From a virus (Duplodnaviria > Heunggongvirae > Uroviricota > Caudoviricetes): DNA of 12,772 nt. The position numbers and the translations under genes were made by a program. A model generated the notes under the pieces. It did no database searches. It saw only the letters and a list, made by a program, of their open reading frames with translations, and was not told the origin of the DNA. Positions within the stretch are counted from its first letter, which is position 1. Each line of letters opens with the position of its first letter. The stretch is from IMG/VR virus record IMGVR_UViG_2531839178_000014; one strand, written 5' to 3'. Of the stretch, positions 1 to 11,627 are shown piece after piece.

Positions 1-155
1 AGCAGAGCGTTCTGGCAACGTCGCTGACACGGTCGCCCCCGGTGCAGCATCAGCATGGCAGTCAGTCTGCGGGCATAATTTTTATCGTGTGTTTTATGGA
101 TGGCTTTCTGCATCAGGCGTCGTTCGTCACGGGAAATTGGTGCTATGATCGGCAT
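1..155 (-). CDS. IS630-family-like transposase, N-terminal part (MPIIAPISRDERRLMQKAIHKTHDKNYARRLTAMLMLHRG...); ORF runs off the window start
   Basis: Minus-strand ATG at 155-153 with an open frame to position 1. The N-terminus resembles Tc1/IS630-type transposases as I recall them. The element end abuts a CTAG site inside IS2 at 256/257. Confidence 0.5.
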   Translation of the reverse strand, partial: MPIIAPISRDERRLMQKAIHKTHDKNYARRLTAMLMLHRGRPCQRRCQNAL

Positions 156-256
156 TGCTCAGTCCGGTTGGTGATTTGTTTTGATTTGGCGATTGTTCAG
201 ATCGCACAATCCGGGCTAAGTTCCCTCAAAGTGATCTACTATTCCGCGCAGCTATT

Positions 257-332
257 TAGTCTAAAAACTAGTATTAAGACTATCACTTATTTAAGTGATA
301 CTGGTTGTCTGGAGATTCAGGGGGCCAGTCTA
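257..332 (-). mobile_element. IS2 left-end fragment (IRL plus about 76 bp), internally truncated by the IS630-like insertion
   Basis: Reverse complement is identical to the first 76 bp of the IS2 copy starting at 12339 (TAGACTGGCCCCCTGAATCTCCAGACAACCAG...TTTTTAGACTA). Identity is lost exactly after GACTA. Confidence 0.8.
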
Positions 333-349
333 GGGGATAAATTAGCCAT
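333..349 (-). pseudogene. 5' stub of a gene (SD GGAGGAA, ATG at 349, codons M-A-N-L-S-P) severed by the IS2 end
   Basis: Minus strand reads ...cagcGGAGGAAttaacTGATGgctaatttatcccc, then the IS2 IRL begins. The start overlaps the native stop of the upstream 113-aa ORF (TGATG). Confidence 0.4.
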
Positions 350-415
350 CAGTTAATTCCTCCGCTGATATATGAGGTGTACTGGCAATAGCGGACACTA
401 CCATTTGTTCTTTTT

Positions 416-1234
416 TTAAGCAGCCATCTGATGATATTTTTCCCTGAAGGCTGCCGGGGAGATATTCCCCAGACGAGAGTGACGACGCTGACGATTGTAG
501 AAAATCTCAATGTATTCCCGTATTACTGAGATGGCTTCATCCCGGTTATTAAAACGATAGTGGCTCAGGCTCTCATTTTTCAGCGTTCCCCAGAAGCTTT
601 CCATCGGAGCGTTGTCGTAACTGTTACCTTTACGCGACATTGATGTTTTCAGACCAAACTGCTCCTGTATGACCCGGTAATCGTATGCGCAGTACTGTGA
701 ACCTCGATCAGAGTGGTGGATTAGCCCGGCAGGTGGGCGCTGGCTCCTGAGCGCCATAAACAGGGCTTTACCTGTCAGCTCTTTTGTCATGCGCTCTCCC
801 ATGGCGTAGCCGACAATTTCGCACGTATAAACATCTTTGATGCCAGCGAGGTACAACCATCCCTCCTGTGTGGCAACATACGTCAGGTCCGCCACCCAGA
901 CCTGATTTGGTGCTGTAGGAGCGAACGTCTGGTTCAGCAGATTTGGCGCAACTGGCAGATTGTGGTTCGGGTTCGTAGTCGCTCTGAACTTGCGTTTCTG
1001 CTTACAGCGTAGCCTTAGCTCCTTACGAAGACGTGCCAGTCGGTCACGACCAACGATGATGCCATTCTCTGCCAGCTCCGTCTGGAGCCGCCGGGTTCCA
1101 TATGTTTCGCGAGTGCGGATATGTGCCACCTTAATCTCCAGTTTTAGCCGCTCATCACTTTGTTTTCTGTCTGAGGGTTCATGCTGTACCCAGTTGTAAT
1201 AACCGCTCCTGGATACACCAAATACCTGACACAT
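416..1234 (-). CDS. IS3-family transposase OrfB segment (DDE integrase-like catalytic region), IS911-like
   Basis: 272-aa ORF with typical IS3-family OrfB features (ADLTYV..., HSDRGSQY..., YDNAPMESFWGTLK...). The orfB frame upstream of the Met is closed by a TGA at 1283-1285. Confidence 0.85.
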   Translation of the reverse strand: MCQVFGVSRSGYYNWVQHEPSDRKQSDERLKLEIKVAHIRTRETYGTRRLQTELAENGIIVGRDRLARLRKELRLRCKQKRKFRATTNPNHNLPVAPNLLNQTFAPTAPNQVWVADLTYVATQEGWLYLAGIKDVYTCEIVGYAMGERMTKELTGKALFMALRSQRPPAGLIHHSDRGSQYCAYDYRVIQEQFGLKTSMSRKGNSYDNAPMESFWGTLKNESLSHYRFNNRDEAISVIREYIEIFYNRQRRHSRLGNISPAAFREKYHQMAA

Positions 1235-1310
1235 CGCTTCAATGGGAAATTGTTGTCGCCATTGTTCGATTAACGCGTATTTTCAGCGACTCCTGTGCAA
1301 AATACGCTGT

Positions 1311-2531
1311 TGTAGATTCAATCTGTCAATGCAACACCCCTTTCAATTATCTCTTTCGGTGTTTTGAACTTCAGTGTCTTTCTCGGTCTGTTGTTTAGCT
1401 GAGCAGCAACCAGATCTAGTTCATGTTGAGTATATTGGGCAAGACATGTCTTTTTAGGAAAGTACTGCCGAATTAGCCCATTTGTGTTCTCATTTGTTCC
1501 CCGCTGCCAAGGACTCTGAGGATCGCAGAAGTAAACTTTAACGCCGGTGCTGACAGTAAATTCTAGATGTCTGGCCAGTTCCATTCCTCTGTCCCATGTC
1601 AGTGATTTTCTGAGTTCTGACGGTAAACTCAGGAATTTGTCGGTAAGAGCCTGATTTACTGAGACAGAATCTTTGCCCCTGAGTCTAAGGATGATCGTAT
1701 AACGTGATTTTCGGTCTACAAGTGTGGCTATATGAGAGTTTTTTGTACCTGAGACTAAATCGCCCTCCCAATGCCCCAGAGAGCGTCTGTTATCGATATT
1801 TCGGGAACGTTCGTGAATTGGTGTTCCGTTCACTATGTTAATCGTACCTCTTTCGCCTTTGCGGGTATGACGCCTGCCATGGCGAAGGCTATGCGACCGT
1901 CGCAGATGCTGTATATTCAGGTGGTGTAGCGCTTCACGGCTACGAAAGTACAGCGTTTTATAAATTGTCTCAGGTGATATTCGCAGCGTTTTTTGACGTG
2001 GTTTTGTTCGCCTTAACCATCCTGATATTTGCTCTGGAGACCATTTCATCTCCAGCTTTTCCAGAACAAGCTTTCGCAATGGTAAATTTTGATCCAGTAA
2101 GCACGGTTTTGGCCTTTTCGCCATTCTGTTGGCTCGGTTATTAGCATCAACAGCTTTGTAATAGCGTCTGCCCCGATTACGCTGAACTTCACGTGAGATC
2201 GTCGAAGGACTGCGATTCAGCGCAGTAGCTATCGCACGAATGCTCATTTTGGCTGACAAACCAGCTCGTATCTCCTCGCGCTCAGACAGTGTCAGGTGAG
2301 CTACAGCCCGCTTACGCTCATGGGGTTTTATGCCGCCAGTATCCCTTAACATAGTGAAGATCGTTCCGGGTTTTGAACCCAGGATATTCGCTATTTCACT
2401 GAAGCCTGTTCCGTTCTTCCATAGTTCAAAAACAGAGGCTTTTTCCTCTGCTGTAAATGTTCGTCTCATTCAAAAAACCTCCGCGACCCCATGTTTTCAC
2501 ATAACTGTTGCGTTGACCAATTGAATCTACA
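1311..2531 (-). mobile_element. IS30, copy 1 (1221 bp), inserted in the IS911-like element; 2-bp direct repeat GT
   Basis: Terminal inverted repeats TGTAGATTCAAT... at both ends. GT at 1309-1310 and 2532-2533. Encodes a 383-aa transposase. Confidence 0.9.
1318..2469 (-). CDS. insI: IS30 transposase
   Basis: 383-aa ORF, identical to the second copy at 10006-11157. Sequence and length match the IS30 transposase as I recall it; N-terminal HTH and C-terminal DDE region. Confidence 0.9.
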   Translation of the reverse strand: MRRTFTAEEKASVFELWKNGTGFSEIANILGSKPGTIFTMLRDTGGIKPHERKRAVAHLTLSEREEIRAGLSAKMSIRAIATALNRSPSTISREVQRNRGRRYYKAVDANNRANRMAKRPKPCLLDQNLPLRKLVLEKLEMKWSPEQISGWLRRTKPRQKTLRISPETIYKTLYFRSREALHHLNIQHLRRSHSLRHGRRHTRKGERGTINIVNGTPIHERSRNIDNRRSLGHWEGDLVSGTKNSHIATLVDRKSRYTIILRLRGKDSVSVNQALTDKFLSLPSELRKSLTWDRGMELARHLEFTVSTGVKVYFCDPQSPWQRGTNENTNGLIRQYFPKKTCLAQYTQHELDLVAAQLNNRPRKTLKFKTPKEIIERGVALTD

Positions 2532-2794
2532 GTTGCTTTTTTTAATATATCTCGCTCAAGGCGAGCTTCATTTAACGCCTTACGCAGTTGCAGAATTTCA
2601 GATTCCAGTTCAGCCACCGTGCGGGAGCCAGGAGTACCGAGCCCTTTTCTGGCGGCGGTAACCCATTGTCCTAAAGTGCCTTCAGGAAGGGATAATCGGG
2701 AAGCGCCTTCACTGATCGAAAGTTGATTTTCAAGAACCGTTCTGACAGCTTCGGCTTTGAACTCTTTAGAGTAACGTTGGGTTTTTCTGCTCAT
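2532..2794 (-). pseudogene. IS911-like OrfA (MSRKTQRYSKEFKAEAV...DILKKAT), interrupted by IS30 just after the A-run; ORF reads on into the IS30 end (to 2426)
   Basis: ATG at 2794 lies 64 bp inside the IS end. HTH and leucine-zipper-like OrfA. The same segment is present in three copies in the window. Confidence 0.8.
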
Positions 2795-2855
2795 TATTAG
2801 CTCCTTCTGATGCCATTCTATTTCAGGAAGGAGTGTCCGTTAAACTCAGGCTACC

Positions 2856-3197
2856 TCAATATTTTTCTTTCGCGTAATCAATAACCTCTTGTAAAAGGTT
2901 GTCTATAATTAACTTTCCGGTTTCAGCCTGGTATTCAGTATGTTGATTAATCCCGATAGCATTCTGGTATGCAGTGCGGATTTCGGTTTCACCCTCCACT
3001 CGGCCCAATTCACCACGGGTAATACCTTCAAAGCGTAACAGCAACTGGTTTATAAACTGTTCTGTTATTTCTATGGTCGTAATGTTCCCATCCAGAAGGT
3101 CAACAATAAGCAGATCACCACCTGTTTTACGTTTTATTCGATGGAGTGCCGCAACAGCTATACGGCGACGATATGTATTAATGGGTTCATGTGTCAT
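2856..3197 (-). CDS. hypothetical protein, 113 aa as found; last about 6 native codons removed by the IS insertion
   Basis: ORF whose stop codon TGA is supplied by the IS terminus. Rejoining the flanks at the ATA duplication restores ...YAKEKYISGGIN*. In frame with the 37-aa ORF upstream. Confidence 0.6.
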   Translation of the reverse strand: MTHEPINTYRRRIAVAALHRIKRKTGGDLLIVDLLDGNITTIEITEQFINQLLLRFEGITRGELGRVEGETEIRTAYQNAIGINQHTEYQAETGKLIIDNLLQEVIDYAKEKY

Positions 3198-3200
3198 TTG

Positions 3201-3314
3201 TTATTTCCCGTATGCTTTACGCAGAAATAAGCAGGCAATATGCATGTAATTTTCACCGTATTGTGCAATAAGGCTGGCGGTCTTGTGTGATGCCATATTC
3301 TTTATAAAAGTCAT
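3201..3314 (-). CDS. small ORF, 37 aa (MTFIKNMASHKTASLIAQYGENYMHIACLFLRKAYGK), strong SD; in frame with the downstream 113-aa ORF across a single TAA
   Basis: AGGAGG sits 7 nt upstream of ATG 3314. Not in the supplied track (below the length cut-off). Checked codon by codon. Confidence 0.4.
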   Translation of the reverse strand: MTFIKNMASHKTASLIAQYGENYMHIACLFLRKAYGK

Positions 3315-3392
3315 AATAAAGCCTCCTGTGGATTAAGGTTGTAACAATCCCCAGCGATAAAACCGCAATAAACGTTCAGGGCATATTTGTTG

Positions 3393-3758
3393 TTATTGCG
3401 CTAATTCTTTTTCAACAGCGGCTTTTGCATATTCACATGCAAAATTCAGAATTTCACTGCCAAGTGTTTTTGTTTCGTTATTACTGGACGTATGTAACAC
3501 CTGTGTTGCATGCAATAAATGATAAACATTTACCGCAAATGAATCAGGCTCCAGACAAATGCCTTCGTAATTATCTTGCTGTGAGGTTGTTTCTGTCATT
3601 GCTCCTGAAGTGCATGCGAGCCTGTTTTTGACAATTCTCTTTCCTCTAATCACTATATCGGCAACATCTATTGCCTTTACAACCTCCGGGAGAAGTTCCT
3701 GGTTTGTATAATCAAAGTTATCAACATGGAGAACAGTTATGTTTTCGAACTTTTTCAT
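3393..3758 (-). CDS. hypothetical protein, 121 aa, no recognisable domain
   Basis: ORF with SD GAGGAA upstream of ATG 3758. Same strand and operon position as the repressor genes. Confidence 0.6.
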   Translation of the reverse strand: MKKFENITVLHVDNFDYTNQELLPEVVKAIDVADIVIRGKRIVKNRLACTSGAMTETTSQQDNYEGICLEPDSFAVNVYHLLHATQVLHTSSNNETKTLGSEILNFACEYAKAAVEKELAQ

Positions 3759-3796
3759 GGCTTCCTCAGCTGACTTATATGTTCTGCTATATAGCG

Positions 3797-3825
3797 AGTC
3801 TCAGAAGTGTTTTCATATTGAGACT
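3797..3825. promoter_or_regulatory. inverted repeat AGTCTCA-N15-TGAGACT between the HTH gene and the 121-aa ORF
   Basis: 7-bp perfect arms seen directly. No T-tract follows, so more likely an operator or RNA structure than a terminator. Confidence 0.3.
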
Positions 3826-3886
3826 GTTTCCGCAATGATTGATAAAAATGTTCGCATGTACCTTGAGGGGCGAAGCGGCGATTATG

Positions 3887-4390
3887 TCACCATTGGTATT
3901 GGTTCTTCCGTAGAAGAGCTTCGCGAGATAAGGAGCAAACTTGTTGAGATGCGTTATGGTGTTGCTGCTCCTCACTTTTTGGTTGCACCGGAGGAGTAAC
4001 CGCGCCAGTTAACAGCCACATCGGATCGCAGCCAAGAATATTTGCCAGTGGGATAAGCATACTGATAGTTGGTTCATACTCTCCGCTCTCCCACTGGATG
4101 ATGACTTCTTCATCGAGATCGAGCAGCCTGGCGAGTTCGGCGGTTGTTAAGCCGCAGGCTTCGCGTTGGGTGCGAAGACGGTTGTTGATTGCAGAATTTT
4201 TGTTCTGTAAAAGCATTGCTGACGATAGCTTTCTGGATATGCTATTTGTCATATCCCATGCCAGTCCTGCGCATGACTCTATATCGCTAGAGAGCGTAGC
4301 ATCTGGTGTTGCTTTTGCTATTAGTGTAATGAGGCTGCCGAGGTTTTTCAGTTCTTCGAGACAGTCAAGAGTTGTAGCTTTATTGATCAT
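3887..4390 (-). CDS. XRE-family helix-turn-helix DNA-binding protein (167 aa) with an extra N-terminal segment
   Basis: Central HTH_XRE-like segment INNRLRTQREACGLTTAELARLLDLDEEVIIQWESGEYEPTISMLIPLANILG. The 5' end is uncertain (internal Met codons at 4252 and 4216 lack an SD). Confidence 0.65.
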   Translation of the reverse strand: MINKATTLDCLEELKNLGSLITLIAKATPDATLSSDIESCAGLAWDMTNSISRKLSSAMLLQNKNSAINNRLRTQREACGLTTAELARLLDLDEEVIIQWESGEYEPTISMLIPLANILGCDPMWLLTGAVTPPVQPKSEEQQHHNASQQVCSLSREALLRKNQYQW

Positions 4391-4421
4391 GAGATGATAC
4401 CCCAGTTACGAACTTTGTTTC

Positions 4422-4450
4422 ATGGTAACTAAGGCATCAAAGCATGGCAA
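4422..4450 (-). promoter_or_regulatory. candidate sigma70 promoter for the HTH gene (-35 TTGCCA, 17-bp spacer, -10 TACCAT on minus strand)
   Basis: Hexamers read directly from the sequence; a TTGATACTTTGG motif copy lies just upstream at 4458-4469. Confidence 0.3.
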
Positions 4451-4486
4451 GTAGTTTTTGATACTTTGGTTTCTTTTTGTATCTGG

Positions 4487-5143
4487 TCAGAAAATATCCC
4501 ACCTGGCATCAACCACAACACCTACTATTTCGCAATCATTGTCCATTTCTATGATGGGATATTGTGGATTAAGGGGCTTTAGAAACGCCTTCCCCATTTC
4601 AGAAATATATTTTTTGAATGTTGCTTCATTGGTGGATTTTTTTCTGGCGATGACGTAACACCCTGAAAAAACTTCTTTATCTGGATTGACAAGGATCGAC
4701 ATTCCTTCAGGAAATGTTATTCCTATAGGCGAAGTCATTGAGTCTCCGTGTACTTCCAGCCAGAAGCCCCTCTCACCAGCGTATTTTACAGAATGCCTCC
4801 AATTATCCTGATCATACATGTTGTAGTCATCACCTGCAGTTGCGAATAATCCTGCCTGAACCCAGTTAATTACAGGGTAAGAGTGTGCTGTGTCTCTCTG
4901 GGGACAGCTCTTAACATTATTTTCCCAATACTTACCTTTTTCATCTCCGTTCTGAAGCCACTGCGGTGAACACTGCAGTGCCGCTGCGACTTTAAAAAGC
5001 GTGTCACCGTTGAAACTTTTTGTAAGACCTTGCTCGGCTTTACTGATTGCAACTCTGGTGACCCCAGCTTTTTTAGCCAACGCATCTTGCGTTAACCCAG
5101 CTTTTTGTCGTGCGTTGATGAGGCGTTCACCTAAAGATTTCAT
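4487..5143 (-). CDS. CI-like phage repressor: N-terminal XRE HTH plus C-terminal LexA/S24 peptidase domain (218 aa)
   Basis: HTH LGERLINARQKAGLTQDALAKKAGVTRVAISKAEQG; Ala-Gly site (VQAGLFATAG); GDSM serine motif and a downstream Lys (ARKK). SD AAGGAG precedes ATG 5143. Confidence 0.85.
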   Translation of the reverse strand: MKSLGERLINARQKAGLTQDALAKKAGVTRVAISKAEQGLTKSFNGDTLFKVAAALQCSPQWLQNGDEKGKYWENNVKSCPQRDTAHSYPVINWVQAGLFATAGDDYNMYDQDNWRHSVKYAGERGFWLEVHGDSMTSPIGITFPEGMSILVNPDKEVFSGCYVIARKKSTNEATFKKYISEMGKAFLKPLNPQYPIIEMDNDCEIVGVVVDARWDIF

Positions 5144-5189
5144 TTTTCTTCTCCTTTCATGGCTGCTGATACTAAAGTAACAGAATGTC

Positions 5190-5218
5190 TTGATACTTTG
5201 GATTCTCATGTTTAACAT
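5190..5218 (+). promoter_or_regulatory. candidate rightward promoter (-35 TTGATA, 17 bp, -10 TAACAT) in the repressor/Cro-like intergenic region
   Basis: Hexamers read from sequence; overlaps the second TTGATACTTTGG motif copy. Confidence 0.3.
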
Positions 5219-5254
5219 TCTTGGATAACAGAGTATCCGGTGTGAGGCTAAAGA

Positions 5255-5464
5255 ATGACCCTTTATGAAATATTAAAAACTCAATTTAAAACCAATGCCG
5301 CTATTGGCCGCAGGTTCCCAAAGAAAGGAAAGCCTCGTGGTAGTCAGGGAGTTGGAAAGTGGAAAACGCGGGGCGTTCCGGAGGATGTTGCCATTCTCTG
5401 CCATCTGGATCCGAACATTCCATATACACATCCAAGCTTAGCGCACACAGAGGATGAGAAGTGA
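5255..5464 (+). CDS. small basic protein (69 aa) divergent from the repressor; positional Cro analogue
   Basis: ORF with SD GTGAGG 7 nt upstream. Assigned by position only; no clear HTH recognised. Confidence 0.45.
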   Translation: MTLYEILKTQFKTNAAIGRRFPKKGKPRGSQGVGKWKTRGVPEDVAILCHLDPNIPYTHPSLAHTEDEK

Positions 5465-5527: not shown

Positions 5528-5597
5528 AATCACATTAGGCTGTGTCCCTTAATCATCTGAGCTATAGTAACTGTCTGTTTACACAACATATTGAACT

Positions 5598-6047
5598 ATG
5601 GCTCGCTACGACCTTCCCGATGAGGCATGGACCATCATCAAGCCCCTGTTACCTCCTGAACCCGCCACACCACGGGCCGGACGCCCATGGGCTGAGCACC
5701 GTAAAATCATCAATGGCATGTTCTGGGTGTTATGTTCCGGTGCACCATGGCGCGATTTACCCGAACGATATGGGTCATGGAAAACTGTTTATAACCGCTT
5801 TAACCGATGGTCAAAGTCAGGCGTGATTAATATTATTTTCAACAGGTTGCTTTCGCTACTTGATGCAAACGGCTTTATTGACTGGTCTGCCACCGCGCTG
5901 GATGGCAGTAATATCCGGGCGCTGAAATGTGCCGCCGGTGCTCAAAAAAACATCCCGATATCGACGGAGATAATGGGCTGGGTCGCTCTCGCGGCGGTTT
6001 TGGCACCAAAATCCATCTGGCAACAGACGGAAGTGGCCTCCCGTTAA
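5598..6047 (+). CDS. IS5-family transposase ORF1 (N-terminal DNA-binding part)
   Basis: 149-aa ORF MARYDLPDEAWTIIKPLLP...WRDLPERYGSWKTVYNRFNRW. Confidence 0.8.
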   Translation: MARYDLPDEAWTIIKPLLPPEPATPRAGRPWAEHRKIINGMFWVLCSGAPWRDLPERYGSWKTVYNRFNRWSKSGVINIIFNRLLSLLDANGFIDWSATALDGSNIRALKCAAGAQKNIPISTEIMGWVALAAVLAPKSIWQQTEVASR

Positions 6048-6442
6048 ATATCGTGCTAAGCCCCGGACAAGCTCATGAAAGCCAGTTCGCGCAACGACTT
6101 CTGGACGGGATTGGCGTTCAGCGTCAGAACGGCAGCATGAAACGCCGTGGACATGCGGTACTGGCTGATAAAGCGTATTCAGGGCGCGCATTGCGCAACG
6201 AGCTGAAAAATAACGGTATAAAGGCAGTAATCCCCCGAAAGTCAAATGAGAAAATGGCATCGGATGGACGTGCACAGCTTGATCGTGATGCGTACTGCAA
6301 TCGTAATGTCGTTGAACGGTGCTTTGGGCGGCTGAAAGAATATCGCCGCATCGCCACGCGTTACGACAAAACGGCGAGAAATTACCTGGCGATGGTGAAA
6401 CTGGGCTGCATCCGACTCTTTTATCAACGCTTACGTAATTAA
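5927..6442 (+). CDS. IS5-family transposase ORF2 (DDE catalytic part), -1 frame relative to ORF1
   Basis: 171-aa ORF ...GGFGTKIHLATDGSGLPLNIVLSPGQAHESQ...; overlaps ORF1 by about 120 nt. Confidence 0.8.
   Translation: MCRRCSKKHPDIDGDNGLGRSRGGFGTKIHLATDGSGLPLNIVLSPGQAHESQFAQRLLDGIGVQRQNGSMKRRGHAVLADKAYSGRALRNELKNNGIKAVIPRKSNEKMASDGRAQLDRDAYCNRNVVERCFGRLKEYRRIATRYDKTARNYLAMVKLGCIRLFYQRLRN
5944..5950 (+). promoter_or_regulatory. A7 slippery run (A AAA AAC in the ORF1 frame), candidate programmed -1 frameshift site fusing ORF1 and ORF2
   Basis: The frames were checked: ORF1 reads GAQKNIP and ORF2 reads CSKKHPDID over the same A-run. Confidence 0.5.
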
Positions 6443-6452
6443 GGGACACAGC

Positions 6453-6746
6453 CTAGCGTTCGCTGAGAAGTTGTTGGTAAGCCTTAAAGGATGCGAACTG
6501 CATTCTACCTTCGGCATTGATTCCAATGCCTTCGCTTGTGCACCAGGCGATGAACTCGGCTGTATCCGCTTCAGCTTTAATAACTCGTTGCCCGCTTCTT
6601 TCGACACGCTTAATCAATTTTTCAGCGTCGTGTTTCCACTCGGTGTAACTGTCGGAGAGCACATCAGCATCAGTAAAAATATTTTTGAGCTCATGATACT
6701 GAATCGCATCGCGAAACCAGAATAAACCAACGGCCTGAACTTTCAT
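6453..6746 (-). CDS. hypothetical protein, 97 aa, strong SD; native TAA stop overlaps the IS5-family insertion point
   Basis: AAGGAGG sits 6 nt upstream of ATG 6746. Protein-like composition. The plus-strand ORF 6471-6725 is the antisense reading. Confidence 0.65.
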   Translation of the reverse strand: MKVQAVGLFWFRDAIQYHELKNIFTDADVLSDSYTEWKHDAEKLIKRVERSGQRVIKAEADTAEFIAWCTSEGIGINAEGRMQFASFKAYQQLLSER

Positions 6747-6865
6747 GTCGAACCTCCTTTGGTTCTTTTGTTTATAGGGATCAAAAGGATAACTGAAGGA
6801 TGGTTCGGCACCAACAAGTACGAATGTGCGGAATCTTAAAAGAATTTATCCGTAAGGAGATGGCA

Positions 6866-7573
6866 GTGAACACCGCAATTTTTAACGACAAAGTATCCAT
6901 GACCAGCGTTGAAATCGCAGAGCTGGTTGGAAGTCAACACGGCAATGTCAGAATATCAATAGAGCGTCTGGCAAAACGCGGGGTGATTCAACTTCCTGCA
7001 ATGCAAAAAGTTGAGAACGAACAATCATTTAGCCAAAACAAATTCACAAACGCATATATTTTCGAAGGCGAACAAGGCAAACGCGACAGCATCATTGTCG
7101 TCGCACAACTTTGCCCGGAATTCACTGCCCGCCTGGTAGATCGTTGGCGCGAACTGGAAGAGCAGGTGCGCAAACCAATGAGCGAAATCGAAATGGTTGC
7201 CGCGATGGCTCTTGAAGCCGTTCGCCAGCAGAAACGGATCACTCAGGTGGAAGAAAAAGTCAGCCATGTTGCCGAAACAGTTGAGCAAATCAAAAAGGGT
7301 ACCATTCGTGAGGGCTATGCCGGATATCGCCAGCTGAAAGCAAAAACCGGTATGTCAGATGCGAAATGTCGCACGCTTGTAAATGCATACAACATCCCGA
7401 CAGACACTCATGAATTTTTGACGCCAGATGGATTACTGGCACGTCGTGAAATTGTTGCTGTGGAACCGTTTCTGAAGGCGTTTCATCACATGATGTGTGG
7501 TGCCGTTCAGCGTGGTACCCGCTGGTATCACCCGAGAATGGGCCTGTTTCAGGCTACTGGCTGGCAGGTGTGA
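6866..7573 (+). CDS. Rha-like phage regulatory protein (putative antirepressor family)
   Basis: N-terminal ...SMTSVEIAELVGSQHGNVRISIERL... resembles the Rha N-terminus of the second copy. Start chosen at GTG 6866 (AAGGAG 6 nt upstream); the longer track ORF from 6800 has no SD. Confidence 0.65.
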   Translation: MNTAIFNDKVSMTSVEIAELVGSQHGNVRISIERLAKRGVIQLPAMQKVENEQSFSQNKFTNAYIFEGEQGKRDSIIVVAQLCPEFTARLVDRWRELEEQVRKPMSEIEMVAAMALEAVRQQKRITQVEEKVSHVAETVEQIKKGTIREGYAGYRQLKAKTGMSDAKCRTLVNAYNIPTDTHEFLTPDGLLARREIVAVEPFLKAFHHMMCGAVQRGTRWYHPRMGLFQATGWQV

Positions 7574-8481: not shown

Positions 8482-8793
8482 GCTTCGCGTTGTCCACAGC
8501 TACAACATTTTGATATTGATTCTGCAAGTCCGGGACGTTACACTGTCTCTGCACCTTATAAAGCGGGTGCCGGGATTGGCGTCCTGAAATTCAATATAGA
8601 GCATAACCGCGCTCATGCGGTTTTTTCGTGTCATGAGCATTGCTACGCCCAAATTATGGTGGGGCGTGCAGGGGCATCGCAAGATGCGCCGGGTTCTATG
8701 TTGACCGGTTACGCCAACCCTGTACGTCTCACCACCTCTGTGATTGGCGTCCCATGTGGTGAGTTCTTTGAATTCAACATAGGGGCTGTCACC

Positions 8794-9617: not shown

Positions 9618-9943
9618 TGAGGTAGCCTGAGTTTAACGGACACTCCTTCCTGAAATAGAATGGCATCAGAAGGAGCTAATAATGAGCAGAAAAACCCAAC
9701 GTTACTCTAAAGAGTTCAAAGCCGAAGCTGTCAGAACGGTTCTTGAAAATCAACTTTCGATCAGTGAAGGCGCTTCCCGATTATCCCTTCCTGAAGGCAC
9801 TTTAGGACAATGGGTTACCGCCGCCAGAAAAGGGCTCGGTACTCCTGGCTCCCGCACGGTGGCTGAACTGGAATCTGAAATTCTGCAACTGCGTAAGGCG
9901 TTAAATGAAGCTCGCCTTGAGCGAGATATATTAAAAAAGCAAC
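9618..9943 (+). mobile_element. IS911-like 5' segment (IRL plus OrfA up to the A-run), 326 bp, abutting the IS30 IRL
   Basis: Near-identical to the reverse complement of 2532-2858 except that the A-run is A6 rather than A7. OrfA (9682-9948) therefore reads ...DILKKQL* into IS30. Confidence 0.85.
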
Positions 9944-11164
9944 TGTAGATTCAATTGGTCAACGCAACAGTTATGTGAAAACATGGGGTCGCGGAGGTTT
10001 TTTGAATGAGACGAACATTTACAGCAGAGGAAAAAGCCTCTGTTTTTGAACTATGGAAGAACGGAACAGGCTTCAGTGAAATAGCGAATATCCTGGGTTC
10101 AAAACCCGGAACGATCTTCACTATGTTAAGGGATACTGGCGGCATAAAACCCCATGAGCGTAAGCGGGCTGTAGCTCACCTGACACTGTCTGAGCGCGAG
10201 GAGATACGAGCTGGTTTGTCAGCCAAAATGAGCATTCGTGCGATAGCTACTGCGCTGAATCGCAGTCCTTCGACGATCTCACGTGAAGTTCAGCGTAATC
10301 GGGGCAGACGCTATTACAAAGCTGTTGATGCTAATAACCGAGCCAACAGAATGGCGAAAAGGCCAAAACCGTGCTTACTGGATCAAAATTTACCATTGCG
10401 AAAGCTTGTTCTGGAAAAGCTGGAGATGAAATGGTCTCCAGAGCAAATATCAGGATGGTTAAGGCGAACAAAACCACGTCAAAAAACGCTGCGAATATCA
10501 CCTGAGACAATTTATAAAACGCTGTACTTTCGTAGCCGTGAAGCGCTACACCACCTGAATATACAGCATCTGCGACGGTCGCATAGCCTTCGCCATGGCA
10601 GGCGTCATACCCGCAAAGGCGAAAGAGGTACGATTAACATAGTGAACGGAACACCAATTCACGAACGTTCCCGAAATATCGATAACAGACGCTCTCTGGG
10701 GCATTGGGAGGGCGATTTAGTCTCAGGTACAAAAAACTCTCATATAGCCACACTTGTAGACCGAAAATCACGTTATACGATCATCCTTAGACTCAGGGGC
10801 AAAGATTCTGTCTCAGTAAATCAGGCTCTTACCGACAAATTCCTGAGTTTACCGTCAGAACTCAGAAAATCACTGACATGGGACAGAGGAATGGAACTGG
10901 CCAGACATCTAGAATTTACTGTCAGCACCGGCGTTAAAGTTTACTTCTGCGATCCTCAGAGTCCTTGGCAGCGGGGAACAAATGAGAACACAAATGGGCT
11001 AATTCGGCAGTACTTTCCTAAAAAGACATGTCTTGCCCAATATACTCAACATGAACTAGATCTGGTTGCTGCTCAGCTAAACAACAGACCGAGAAAGACA
11101 CTGAAGTTCAAAACACCGAAAGAGATAATTGAAAGGGGTGTTGCATTGACAGATTGAATCTACA
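9944..11164 (+). mobile_element. IS30, copy 2 (1221 bp)
   Basis: Same terminal repeats as copy 1. Flanked by AC on the left and GT on the right, which are reverse complements rather than a direct repeat. Confidence 0.9.
10006..11157 (+). CDS. insI: IS30 transposase
   Basis: 383-aa ORF identical in protein sequence to 1318-2469. Confidence 0.9.
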   Translation: MRRTFTAEEKASVFELWKNGTGFSEIANILGSKPGTIFTMLRDTGGIKPHERKRAVAHLTLSEREEIRAGLSAKMSIRAIATALNRSPSTISREVQRNRGRRYYKAVDANNRANRMAKRPKPCLLDQNLPLRKLVLEKLEMKWSPEQISGWLRRTKPRQKTLRISPETIYKTLYFRSREALHHLNIQHLRRSHSLRHGRRHTRKGERGTINIVNGTPIHERSRNIDNRRSLGHWEGDLVSGTKNSHIATLVDRKSRYTIILRLRGKDSVSVNQALTDKFLSLPSELRKSLTWDRGMELARHLEFTVSTGVKVYFCDPQSPWQRGTNENTNGLIRQYFPKKTCLAQYTQHELDLVAAQLNNRPRKTLKFKTPKEIIERGVALTD

Positions 11165-11491
11165 GTTGCTTTTTTTAATATATCTCGCTCAAGGCGAGCT
11201 TCATTTAACGCCTTACGCAGTTGCAGAATTTCAGATTCCAGTTCAGCCACCGTGCGGGAACCAGGAGTACCGAGCCCTTTTCTGGCGGCGGTAACCCATT
11301 GTCCTAAAGTGCCTTCAGGAAGGGATAATCGGGAAGCGCCTTCACTGATCGAAAGTTGATTTTCAAGAACCGTTCTGACAGCTTCGGCTTTGAACTCTTT
11401 AGAGTAACGTTGGGTTTTTCTGCTCATTATTAGCTCCTTCTGATGCCATTCTATTTCAGGAAGGAGTGTCCGTTAAACTCAGGCTACCTCA
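11165..11491 (-). mobile_element. IS911-like 5' segment (IRL plus OrfA up to the A-run), 327 bp, inverted, abutting the IS30 IRR
   Basis: Matches 2532-2858 (A7) with one substitution (A at 11260 versus G at 2627). OrfA from ATG 11427 reads into the IS30 end (track ORF 11077-11427). Confidence 0.85.
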
Positions 11492-11627
11492 AAGGACCGA
11501 ACAAACGAAACAGCAATGAGACCGTTGCGAAAAGCGACAATAGACAAATTCCCTGAATATATCGACCCGCGCCTGCGTAATTACCGCTCACGCTATGGCG
11601 CTATCAGTAATGACTGAGGAATTTACC

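What the first reader, a model, noticed from the sequence alone, without database searches (positions are those of the whole stretch)
3197..3314. Single in-frame TAA splits one reading frame into the 37-aa and 113-aa ORFs
The minus strand reads ...AAA GCA TAC GGG AAA TAA CAA ATG ACA CAT..., so the 37-aa ORF (strong AGGAGG SD) and the 113-aa ORF (weak SD) share one frame separated only by TAA and CAA. This fits either a roughly 160-aa gene inactivated by a nonsense mutation or two coupled small genes. Combined with the IS insertion that removes the native C-terminus (ISGGIN), the locus may be decaying.
Basis: seen in the sequence. Interest (0 to 1): 0.5.

Follow-up and report, generated by a model that had tools for sequence, protein, structure and literature searches.

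The report
Two adjacent small prophage genes, not one
The TAA is the normal, conserved stop codon of a real 37-residue prophage gene that sits three bases upstream of the next gene, so this is an ordinary gene boundary and not a gene broken by a mutation.

Summary
On the minus strand a 37-aa ORF (3314..3201, stop TAA 3203-3201), a CAA (3200-3198) and the ATG (3197) of a 113-aa ORF share one frame.

The nonsense-mutation reading is refuted:
- Relatives of the small ORF in every locus examined end at ...KAYG-x (three carry two more residues) followed by a stop.
- The gene after it differs between phages (phrog_340 or phrog_1737) and starts from 4 nt overlapping to 7 nt downstream, in varying frames.
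- Megablast similarity to phiP27 and PhiR49_2 ends at the TAA.
- Of 77 IMG/VR loci with the downstream gene, 49 show TAA-CAA-ATG, 14 TAA-CT-ATG (out of frame), 2 an ATGA overlap and 12 an intervening gene. None has a sense codon.
- Full-length homologues of the downstream protein are 118-120 aa and start at this ATG.
- The small ORF is under purifying selection (dN/dS 0.06-0.29).

Its last codons (GGG/GGA plus purines) probably serve as the ribosome-binding site of the next gene, giving translational coupling. This step is inferred.

The IS claim is right. An IS3-family element (IS600 from memory, carrying an IS30) cuts off the last six residues (ISGGIN) and supplies the stop. The finding is ordinary and of low interest.

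The parts
3322..3327 (-). AGGAGG ribosome-binding site of the small gene, 7 nt upstream of its ATG
   Evidence: Read directly. A purine-rich GGAGG or GAGG-like motif sits at the same place in most relatives (upstream 20 nt).
3201..3314 (-). Small gene, 37 aa (MTFIKNMASHKTASLIAQYGENYMHIACLFLRKAYGK) plus TAA. It belongs to a conserved 32-38 aa family of temperate enterobacterial phages and matches no family in Pfam, NCBIfam, PHROGs or PADLOC.
   Evidence: ORF. 15 homologous loci at 49-92% aa identity. pS 0.67-1.1 against pN 0.15-0.32, and dN/dS 0.06-0.29 where measurable. Indels are whole codons. It is annotated as a hypothetical protein in PhiR49_2, Stx1 phages, SaltyDalty, Fraca and EKP1. The exact sequence is on record in 362 blocks of the public collection, and it is called as a separate gene in 10 of 10 places shown. 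No family hit.
3201..3203 (-). TAA, the native conserved stop codon of the small gene
   Evidence: A stop (TAA or TGA) follows KAYG-x, or KAYG-x plus two residues, in all 15 phage and E. coli loci and in 76 of the 77 IMG/VR loci. In the remaining locus, L027, the small ORF is frameshifted upstream, yet the TAA-CAA-ATG junction itself is intact. 54 of 54 IMG/VR contigs matching AAAGCATACGGGAAANNNCAAATG have NNN = TAA. All four identity classes sampled among 117 complete E. coli genomes keep TAA.
3198..3200 (-). CAA, a 3-nt intercistronic spacer
   Evidence: It is invariant in the window-type junction (49 IMG/VR loci). In other lineages it is replaced by spacers of 1, 2, 4 or 7 nt or by an ATGA overlap.
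3204..3209 (-). GGGAAA, the last two codons (Gly-Lys) of the small gene and the probable weak Shine-Dalgarno element of the downstream gene
   Evidence: The Gly codon is GGG (21) or GGA (6) and never GGC or GGT in 27 distinct junction sequences, while neighbouring codons vary synonymously (AAA/AAG, GCA/GCT/GCC/GCG, TAC/TAT). Relatives have GGGAGA or GGGAGG here. The function is inferred.
2856..3197 (-). Downstream gene, phrog_1737 family, function unknown. 113 aa here, truncated from the native 119 aa. The stop TGA 2858-2856 is the first three bases of the inserted IS.
   Evidence: The full-length homologue L001:4604-4963 hits phrog_1737 with E = 5e-50, residues 3-118 on profile 2-117 of 118. 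Full-length homologues are 118-120 aa with a variable N-terminus at residues 2-5. Truncation shown.
373..2858 (-). IS3-family element (IS600 by my recollection of its OrfA), itself interrupted by an IS30-type element (transposase ORF 1318..2469)
   Evidence: Window against L001 and L006. Ends and junctions. ORFs. L006 annotates the related element as 'IS3 family transposase, programmed frameshift'. The same arrangement is in CP026824.1 (L153).
2859..2861 (-). TAT, one copy of the 3-bp target-site duplication (codon Y113)
   Evidence: compared with the uninterrupted L001 sequence.
370..372 (-). TAT, second copy of the target-site duplication
349..369 (-). Orphaned native 3' end of the phrog_1737 gene (ISGGIN plus TGA)
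   Evidence: It matches L001 4943-4963.
3393..3758 (-). Upstream neighbour, 121-aa ORF (phiP27 L08-like, phrog_5451), same operon orientation

Best explanation
These are two separate, adjacent genes of the early leftward operon of a phiP27/Fels-1-like prophage. The genes run rightward to leftward on the minus strand, from the repressor towards xis and int. The first encodes a conserved helical peptide of about 37 residues that ends ...LRKAYGK, and TAA is its ancestral stop codon. The second starts 3 nt later at ATG 3197. It encodes a 119-aa protein of unknown function (phrog_1737), shortened here to 113 aa by an IS insertion. That both share a frame is coincidence. The stop and the next start are only 3 nt apart, and the only purine-rich ribosome-binding element for the second gene (GGGAAA) lies inside the last two codons of the first. 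The second gene is therefore most likely translated by ribosomes that terminate at TAA and re-initiate, or are recruited locally (translational coupling). Shown: there are two genes, the stop is conserved, the small ORF is under purifying selection, the downstream partner is interchangeable, and the IS truncates the second gene. Inferred: the coupling and the Shine-Dalgarno role of the last codons. What either protein does is unknown; a host-directed or regulatory early function is my guess from their position.
For: (1) Alignment of the junction in E. coli prophages, PhiR49_2, phiP27 and Stx phages shows the small ORF always ending in a stop. The next gene differs and is out of frame in the phages (TAAtaATG, TAAgtcaATG). 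Megablast similarity to phiP27 and PhiR49_2 stops at query 600-603, which is the TAA/CAA. (2) All 77 IMG/VR loci with a phrog_1737 gene have the small ORF upstream: 49 TAA-CAA-ATG, 14 TAA-CT-ATG, 2 ATGA overlap and 12 with an intervening 56-74 aa gene. None is fused. (3) 54 of 54 junction matches carry TAA. 117 complete E. coli genomes carry the junction, and all four sampled identity classes keep TAA. 10 of 10 public places call two genes. (4) Full-length phrog_1737 homologues are 118-120 aa, and the profile is 118 long and aligned from residue 3. (5) For the small ORF, dN/dS is 0.06-0.29 and synonymous sites are saturated in distant pairs. (6) The Gly codon is restricted to GGG/GGA in 27 of 27 distinct junctions. 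(7) The IS junctions are.
Against: The 90%-identity protein cluster represented by the 119-aa protein P0001 also contains the 37-aa proteins. That would be expected if some member were a fusion product. None of the 15 listed members exceeds 119 aa, and ten conceptual fusions are absent from the collection, but I could not list all 205 members. The Shine-Dalgarno element of the downstream gene in this lineage (GGGAAA) is weak, and coupling has not been measured. No RNA structure that would enforce coupling was found (z = 0.24). The junction sequences counted are not phylogenetically independent.
Confidence: 0.92

Rival explanations
1. A single gene of about 158 aa was inactivated by a nonsense mutation (sense codon to TAA), leaving two fragments.
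For: The two ORFs are in one frame and separated only by TAA and CAA. The second ORF has a weak Shine-Dalgarno element. The surrounding prophage is damaged by IS elements. The 37-aa and 119-aa proteins are lumped in one 90% cluster.
Against: No relative has a sense codon there: 0 of 77, 0 of 54, 0 of 15 and 0 of 10 loci, and none in the sampled E. coli classes. The same gene pair is out of frame in Fostie-type loci and separated by another gene in Fels-1-type loci. The small ORF occurs without the second gene in phiP27 and Stx phages. Full-length homologues of the second gene are 118-120 aa. The small ORF is under purifying selection.
Confidence: 0.01
2. Sequencing or base-call error created the TAA.
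For: None beyond the generic possibility.
Against: The identical junction is found in 71 complete E. coli genomes at 99% identity or more to the 45-nt probe. It is also in 54 IMG/VR contigs and in 10 independent NCBI and Logan assemblies, including CP026824.1, which is colinear with the window at 99.7%.
Confidence: 0.005
3. Programmed read-through of the TAA produces a 158-aa fusion protein in addition to the two separate products.
For: The in-frame arrangement and the invariant junction GGGAAATAACAAATG in 49 IMG/VR loci of the window type. The unexplained cluster lumping.
Against: To my knowledge UAA is the least leaky stop codon in E. coli. The frame relation is not conserved in sister lineages carrying the same two genes (2-nt spacer, ATGA overlap, intervening gene). 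No stimulatory RNA structure is predicted. The N-terminal residues 2-5 of the second protein are variable, as expected for a true N-terminus.
Confidence: 0.03
4. The small ORF acts mainly in cis as a leader or upstream ORF whose translation, possibly with a stalling C-terminus RKAYG-x, controls expression of whatever gene follows, rather than as a free-standing protein.
For: It is always directly abutted to the next gene (4-nt overlap to 7-nt spacer) although that gene is interchangeable. It has a strong Shine-Dalgarno element of its own and a weak one downstream. The C-terminal LRKAYG is the most conserved part, and the Gly codon is constrained to purine-rich codons.
Against: The whole peptide, including the N-terminal MTFIKD and the central K-T-A-x-L, is conserved under purifying selection. 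This argues for a protein that functions in trans. No attenuator or terminator structure was found. Close spacing of genes is the rule in phage early operons (my knowledge).
Confidence: 0.1

Closest known systems
Translationally coupled adjacent cistrons with termination-reinitiation (for example E. coli trpE-trpD, trpB-trpA and galT-galK; from my knowledge of the literature)
   Same: The stop of the upstream gene and the start of the downstream gene lie within a few nucleotides, or overlap as ATGA in relatives L081 and L082. The ribosome-binding element of the downstream gene sits inside the upstream coding sequence.
   Different: Coupling is inferred from sequence only. The upstream cistron is unusually short (32-38 codons), and its downstream partner differs between phages.
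phiP27 / Fels-1 / PhiR49_2 / yecE-type Stx prophage early-left regions (GenBank records NC_003356, NC_010391, PV340570, LC567819)
   Same: Same gene order: repressor, HTH protein, L08-like gene, small ORF, next gene, then on to xis and int. The small ORF is 68-92% identical in phiP27, PhiR49_2 and the Stx phages and 59% in Fels-1, and is annotated as a separate hypothetical protein in several records.
   Different: In phiP27, PhiR49_2 and the Stx phages the gene after the small ORF is a phrog_340 protein in another frame. In Fels-1 a 69-aa gene (STM0898.4n), which I did not assign to a family, lies between the small ORF and the phrog_1737 gene. The window's lineage has the phrog_1737 gene directly after the small ORF.
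Nonsense-split pseudogenes of IS-rich Shigella/EIEC genomes
   Same: Genomic setting: several IS elements (IS3-family with IS30, IS630-like, another of about 915 bp) disrupt this prophage. The second gene does lose 6 codons to an IS.
   Different: The TAA itself is ancestral and conserved. No intact fused homologue exists.
Programmed stop-codon read-through (for example Q-beta A1 protein; from my knowledge)
   Same: Two in-frame ORFs separated by a single stop codon.
   Different: The stop is UAA, not a leaky UGA or UAG. The in-frame relation is not conserved, and no stimulatory structure is predicted.

Membership tests
Gene split by a nonsense mutation (pseudogene) | Intact relatives encode both parts as one continuous ORF | tested here: not met
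   0 fused among 77 IMG/VR loci, 15 phage and E. coli loci and 10 public places. Full-length homologues of the second part are 118-120 aa. The search with the 37-aa part finds proteins of 37-38 aa, and the longer hits are upstream extensions, truncations or frameshifts that never continue into phrog_1737.
Gene split by a nonsense mutation (pseudogene) | The stop position is a sense codon in relatives | tested here: not met
   NNN = TAA in 54 of 54 contigs. TAA or TGA is present in all other lineages.
Gene split by a nonsense mutation (pseudogene) | Relaxed selection on the fragments | tested here: not met
   Small ORF dN/dS is 0.06-0.29, with pS near saturation against pN 0.15-0.32.
Translationally coupled cistron pair | Upstream stop within a few nt of, or overlapping, the downstream start | tested here: met
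   3 nt here. From a 4-nt overlap to a 7-nt spacer in all relatives.
Translationally coupled cistron pair | Downstream ribosome-binding element embedded in the upstream coding sequence | tested here: inconclusive
   GGGAAA here is weak, while relatives have GGGAGA or GGGAGG. The Gly codon is only GGG or GGA in 27 of 27 distinct junctions although neighbouring codons vary synonymously. This is suggestive, but the sequences are related.
Translationally coupled cistron pair | Downstream translation depends on translation of the upstream ORF | not testable with these tools
   Needs reporter fusions or ribosome profiling.
Programmed stop-codon read-through | In-frame relation of the two ORFs conserved among relatives | tested here: not met
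   Of the 77 loci, 14 have a 2-nt spacer, 2 an ATGA overlap and 12 an intervening gene.
Programmed stop-codon read-through | Leaky stop context or stimulatory RNA structure | tested here: not met
   The stop is UAA. The fold of 3340..3150 (-) is no more stable than shuffles (z = 0.24). No Rfam family lies here.
PHROG family phrog_1737 (the 113/119-aa protein) | Significant full-length match to the family profile | tested here: met
   E = 5.1e-50, residues 3-118 on profile 2-117 of 118. The function of the family is unknown. There is no Pfam or NCBIfam hit and no fold match to an AF2 model of pLDDT 78.
IS3-family insertion (IS600 by recollection) | Element ends flanked by a 3-bp direct target duplication at a site that is uninterrupted in relatives | tested here: met
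   TAT at 2859-2861 and 370-372. L001 is uninterrupted at 4940-4942. OrfA and OrfB ORFs. L006 annotates the related copy as an IS3-family transposase. The name IS600 is from memory and was not tested against ISfinder.

The most novel reading that the evidence does not exclude
The KAYG peptide of 32-38 residues is an uncatalogued, strongly conserved early-operon element of temperate enterobacterial phages. It may act as a portable translational coupler or nascent-peptide regulator for whichever gene is placed behind it. Its last codons double as the downstream ribosome-binding site. It is also obligatorily linked to phrog_1737, since 77 of 77 loci with that gene carry it upstream.
Probability: 0.1. 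Interest if true: 0.45.

Novelty: already known. Interest (0 to 1): 0.1.

Why it matters
It matters little for biology at large. The result removes a false pseudogene call and shows that the in-frame TAA is an ordinary gene boundary. There are two minor practical points. First, the 37-aa gene is real, conserved and under purifying selection, yet it is absent from Pfam, NCBIfam and PHROGs. It is also left unannotated by RefSeq/PGAP in the six E. coli genomes I inspected, so it is a small gene that pipelines miss. Second, it always abuts the next gene and co-occurs with phrog_1737 in 77 of 77 loci. That makes the pair a reasonable candidate for anyone studying small proteins or coupling in prophage early operons.

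Tried and rejected
I used the exhaustive representative search instead. Its multi-stretch hits to long ankyrin-repeat proteins such as P0019 are summed short matches to G-x-x-x-LH-x-AC, and I regard them as spurious.
- The genome-contig scan with the 119-aa alignment found no confirmed relative.
- The literature search for phiP27 L07/L08 returned only irrelevant papers.
- The RNA fold of the junction showed no significant structure.
- The promoter and terminator scan of 2800-5400 found nothing that stands out from shuffles, and no minus-strand site between the 121-aa gene and the small ORF.
- Rfam has no family at the locus.
- Pfam, NCBIfam, PHROGs and PADLOC gave nothing for the 37-aa peptide. 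PADLOC gave only a non-significant REase_II match (E = 0.0076) for the 119-aa protein.
- The AF2 model of the 119-aa protein (pLDDT 78; only one of five models was confident) has no match with E at or below 0.001 in PDB or BFVD.
- The single-sequence AF2 model of the 37-aa peptide is one long helix (pLDDT 81), which is not informative.
- Exact look-up of ten conceptual read-through fusions found none in the collection.
- A type I toxin reading for the small peptide was considered and rejected. From the sequence, the longest uncharged hydrophobic run is about 7 residues, so there is no transmembrane segment.

Full report
**Observation.** On the minus strand the window reads ...AAA GCA TAC GGG AAA TAA CAA ATG ACA CAT.... 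The 37-aa ORF runs 3314..3201 with its stop TAA at 3203-3201. CAA is at 3200-3198. The 113-aa ORF runs 3197..2856. The two start codons are 117 nt apart, so the ORFs share a frame. AGGAGG (3327-3322) precedes the first ATG by 7 nt, while only GGGAAA (3209-3204) precedes the second.

**Setting.** The region is the early leftward part of a phiP27/Fels-1-like prophage of E. coli or Shigella. The order on the minus strand is:
- a LexA/S24-type repressor (4487..5218);
- an HTH protein (3887..4390);
- an L08-like 121-aa gene (3393..3758, phrog_5451);
- the 37-aa ORF;
- the 113-aa ORF.

In intact relatives the genes continue on to xis and int. The window is colinear at 99.7% with CP026824.1 (L153), which has the same IS arrangement.

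**Is the TAA a mutation?** No.

(a) Aligning the junction with E. coli prophages, PhiR49_2, phiP27 and yecE-type Stx phages shows that the small ORF is conserved and always ends ...RKAYG(K/R) plus TAA. In the phages the next gene is different (a phrog_340 protein) and starts in another frame (TAAtaATG, TAAgtcaATG). Megablast similarity to phiP27 and PhiR49_2 ends at query position 600-603, which is the TAA/CAA. The stop codon is therefore also a mosaic module boundary.

(b) A tblastn search with the peptide finds it in 32 phage records from Escherichia, Salmonella and Cronobacter hosts, plus one record labelled Elizabethkingia, at 49-92% identity.

(c) I fetched 77 IMG/VR loci encoding a relative of the downstream protein. 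Every one has the small ORF upstream. In 76 it ends in a stop right after KAYG-x, or KAYG-x plus two residues. In one, L027, the small ORF is frameshifted, but the TAA-CAA-ATG junction itself is intact. The junction types are:

| Junction | Loci | Frame relation |
|---|---|---|
| TAA-CAA-ATG (window type) | 49 | in frame |
| TAA-CT-ATG | 14 | out of frame |
| ATGA overlap | 2 | out of frame |
| intervening gene of 56-74 aa | 12 | separated |

None has a sense codon at the stop position.

(d) A pattern scan that leaves the stop codon free (AAAGCATACGGGAAANNNCAAATG) returns 54 IMG/VR contigs, all with TAA.

(e) A 45-nt probe centred on the TAA matches 117 of 5,426 complete E. coli genomes. I inspected one genome from each of the four identity classes, and all keep TAA-CAA-ATG. 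The mismatches lie in the flanking codons.

(f) The exact 37-aa protein is on record in 362 blocks of the public collection. In all 10 places shown it is called as its own gene, followed 3 nt later by a separate gene of 119 aa, or of 113 or 44 aa where an IS has cut it.

**Does the second protein start at ATG 3197?** Yes. The uninterrupted homologue (L001:4604-4963, 119 aa) matches phrog_1737 over residues 3-118 against profile positions 2-117 of 118 (E = 5e-50). All full-length homologues in the protein search are 118-120 aa. In their alignment residues 2-5 are variable and conservation begins at I6 and R10-R12, as expected of a true N-terminus. PGAP places the start at the same ATG in six E. 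coli genomes.

**Is the small ORF a real gene?** Yes. Across 15 loci its length is 32-38 aa and its indels are whole codons. In distant pairs synonymous differences are near saturation (pS 0.67-1.1) while non-synonymous ones stay at pN 0.15-0.32. Where dN/dS can be measured it is 0.06-0.29. Conserved features are MTFIKD at the N-terminus, K-T-A-x-L, a central Gly, and LRKAYG at the C-terminus. It matches no Pfam, NCBIfam, PHROG or PADLOC family. A single-sequence AF2 model is all-helical. It has no transmembrane-length hydrophobic run.

**How the pair most likely works.** The small ORF is always followed immediately by the next gene, anywhere from a 4-nt overlap to a 7-nt spacer, whichever gene that is. 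In 27 distinct junction sequences the penultimate Gly codon is GGG (21) or GGA (6) and never GGC or GGT. The neighbouring Lys, Ala and Tyr codons vary synonymously. The last codon is usually AGA, AGG or AAA. I infer that these codons double as the Shine-Dalgarno element of the next gene, and that the next gene is translationally coupled to the small ORF. In the window's lineage the element is weak (GGGAAA), and the junction GGGAAATAACAAATG is invariant in the 49 IMG/VR loci of this type. No RNA structure (z = 0.24) or promoter or terminator signal suggests another mechanism. This step is not shown experimentally.

The functions of the two proteins are unknown. An AF2 model of the 119-aa protein (pLDDT 78, helices plus a beta hairpin) has no significant match in PDB or BFVD.

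**IS damage.** Compared with uninterrupted relatives, an IS3-family element (IS600 by my recollection, itself carrying an IS30-type element) occupies 373..2858. It has a TAT target duplication at 2859-2861 and 370-372. Its terminal TGA ends the ORF after Y113. The native tail ISGGIN plus TGA survives at 369..349. The next gene, whose ATG is at 349-347, is cut by an IS630-like end at or before position 331.

**Unexplained.** The 90%-identity protein cluster represented by the 119-aa P0001 also holds the 37-aa proteins, although the two share no sequence. A rare fusion product, for instance from an assembly with an error or an ambiguous base, or a clustering artefact, could explain this. None of the 15 listed members exceeds 119 aa. 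Ten conceptual fusions are not in the collection. I could not list all 205 members.

**Verdict.** The TAA is an ordinary gene boundary between two small, probably translationally coupled prophage genes. The nonsense-mutation, sequencing-error and read-through readings are excluded or very unlikely. Both proteins already exist in public databases as separate hypothetical proteins. Interest is low. The only mildly useful by-product is the recognition of a conserved small-gene family that no protein-family library holds and that PGAP left unannotated in the genomes inspected.

Noticed in passing
window 8551-8739 (+): Rfam gathering-level hits to isrK (8551-8627, 61.9 bits) and C4 antisense RNA (8652-8739, 80.1 bits). 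They lie next to Rha/antirepressor-like ORFs (6800-7573 +), which suggests a P1/P7-type c4-icd-ant immunity module in this prophage remnant.
   Followed up: no
window 9618-11498: A second IS3-family (IS600-like) copy is again interrupted by an IS30-type element (transposase 10006-11157 +). Here the IS30 is in the opposite relative orientation to the copy at 373-2858.
   Followed up: no
window 5539-6453: An insertion of about 915 bp relative to E. coli CFSAN029787 (L006). It carries two overlapping transposase-like ORFs (5598-6047 and 5927-6442 +, DUF4096/DDE type) and sits just beyond the repressor gene.
   Followed up: no
window 1-331 (-): An IS630-like element end and the start of its transposase (MPIIAPISRDERRLMQKAIHK...). 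It truncates the 71-aa gene that follows the phrog_1737 gene. The family name is from memory.
   Followed up: partly
protein cluster of P0001: The 37-aa and 119-aa proteins, which share no sequence, are members of the same 90%-identity cluster. Ten conceptual fusion proteins are not in the collection. This remains unexplained; it may be a rare read-through call or a clustering artefact.
   Followed up: partly
L001 4202-4408, L006 3202-3408, against window 3393-3758 (-): RefSeq/PGAP annotates the upstream L08-like gene as 68 aa (C-terminal part, matching phrog_4587). Phage records and phrog_5451 support the 121-aa form, so the start site is unsettled. PGAP also leaves the 37-aa gene unannotated in all six E. 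coli genomes inspected.
   Followed up: partly
P0018, P0020, P0037, L027, L147: Other genomes carry damaged versions. These are an IS630 insertion inside the small ORF (P0018), frameshifted small ORFs (P0020, P0037, L027), and a phrog_1737 gene flagged 'internal stop' in E. coli 2015C-3163 (L147).
   Followed up: no
one search hits P0016, P0019, P0021-23: The 37-aa peptide gives summed multi-stretch matches (about 45-49 bits) to long ankyrin-repeat proteins through the motif G-x-x-x-(L/M)H-(I/L)-AC-L. This is probably a chance resemblance of one helix-turn-helix unit.
   Followed up: partly
L013 (OM284015.1, 'Elizabethkingia phage EKP1'): A phage recorded with a Bacteroidota host carries this enterobacterial-type early region, including the small ORF at 61% identity and a lambdoid repressor module. 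The host assignment looks doubtful.
   Followed up: no
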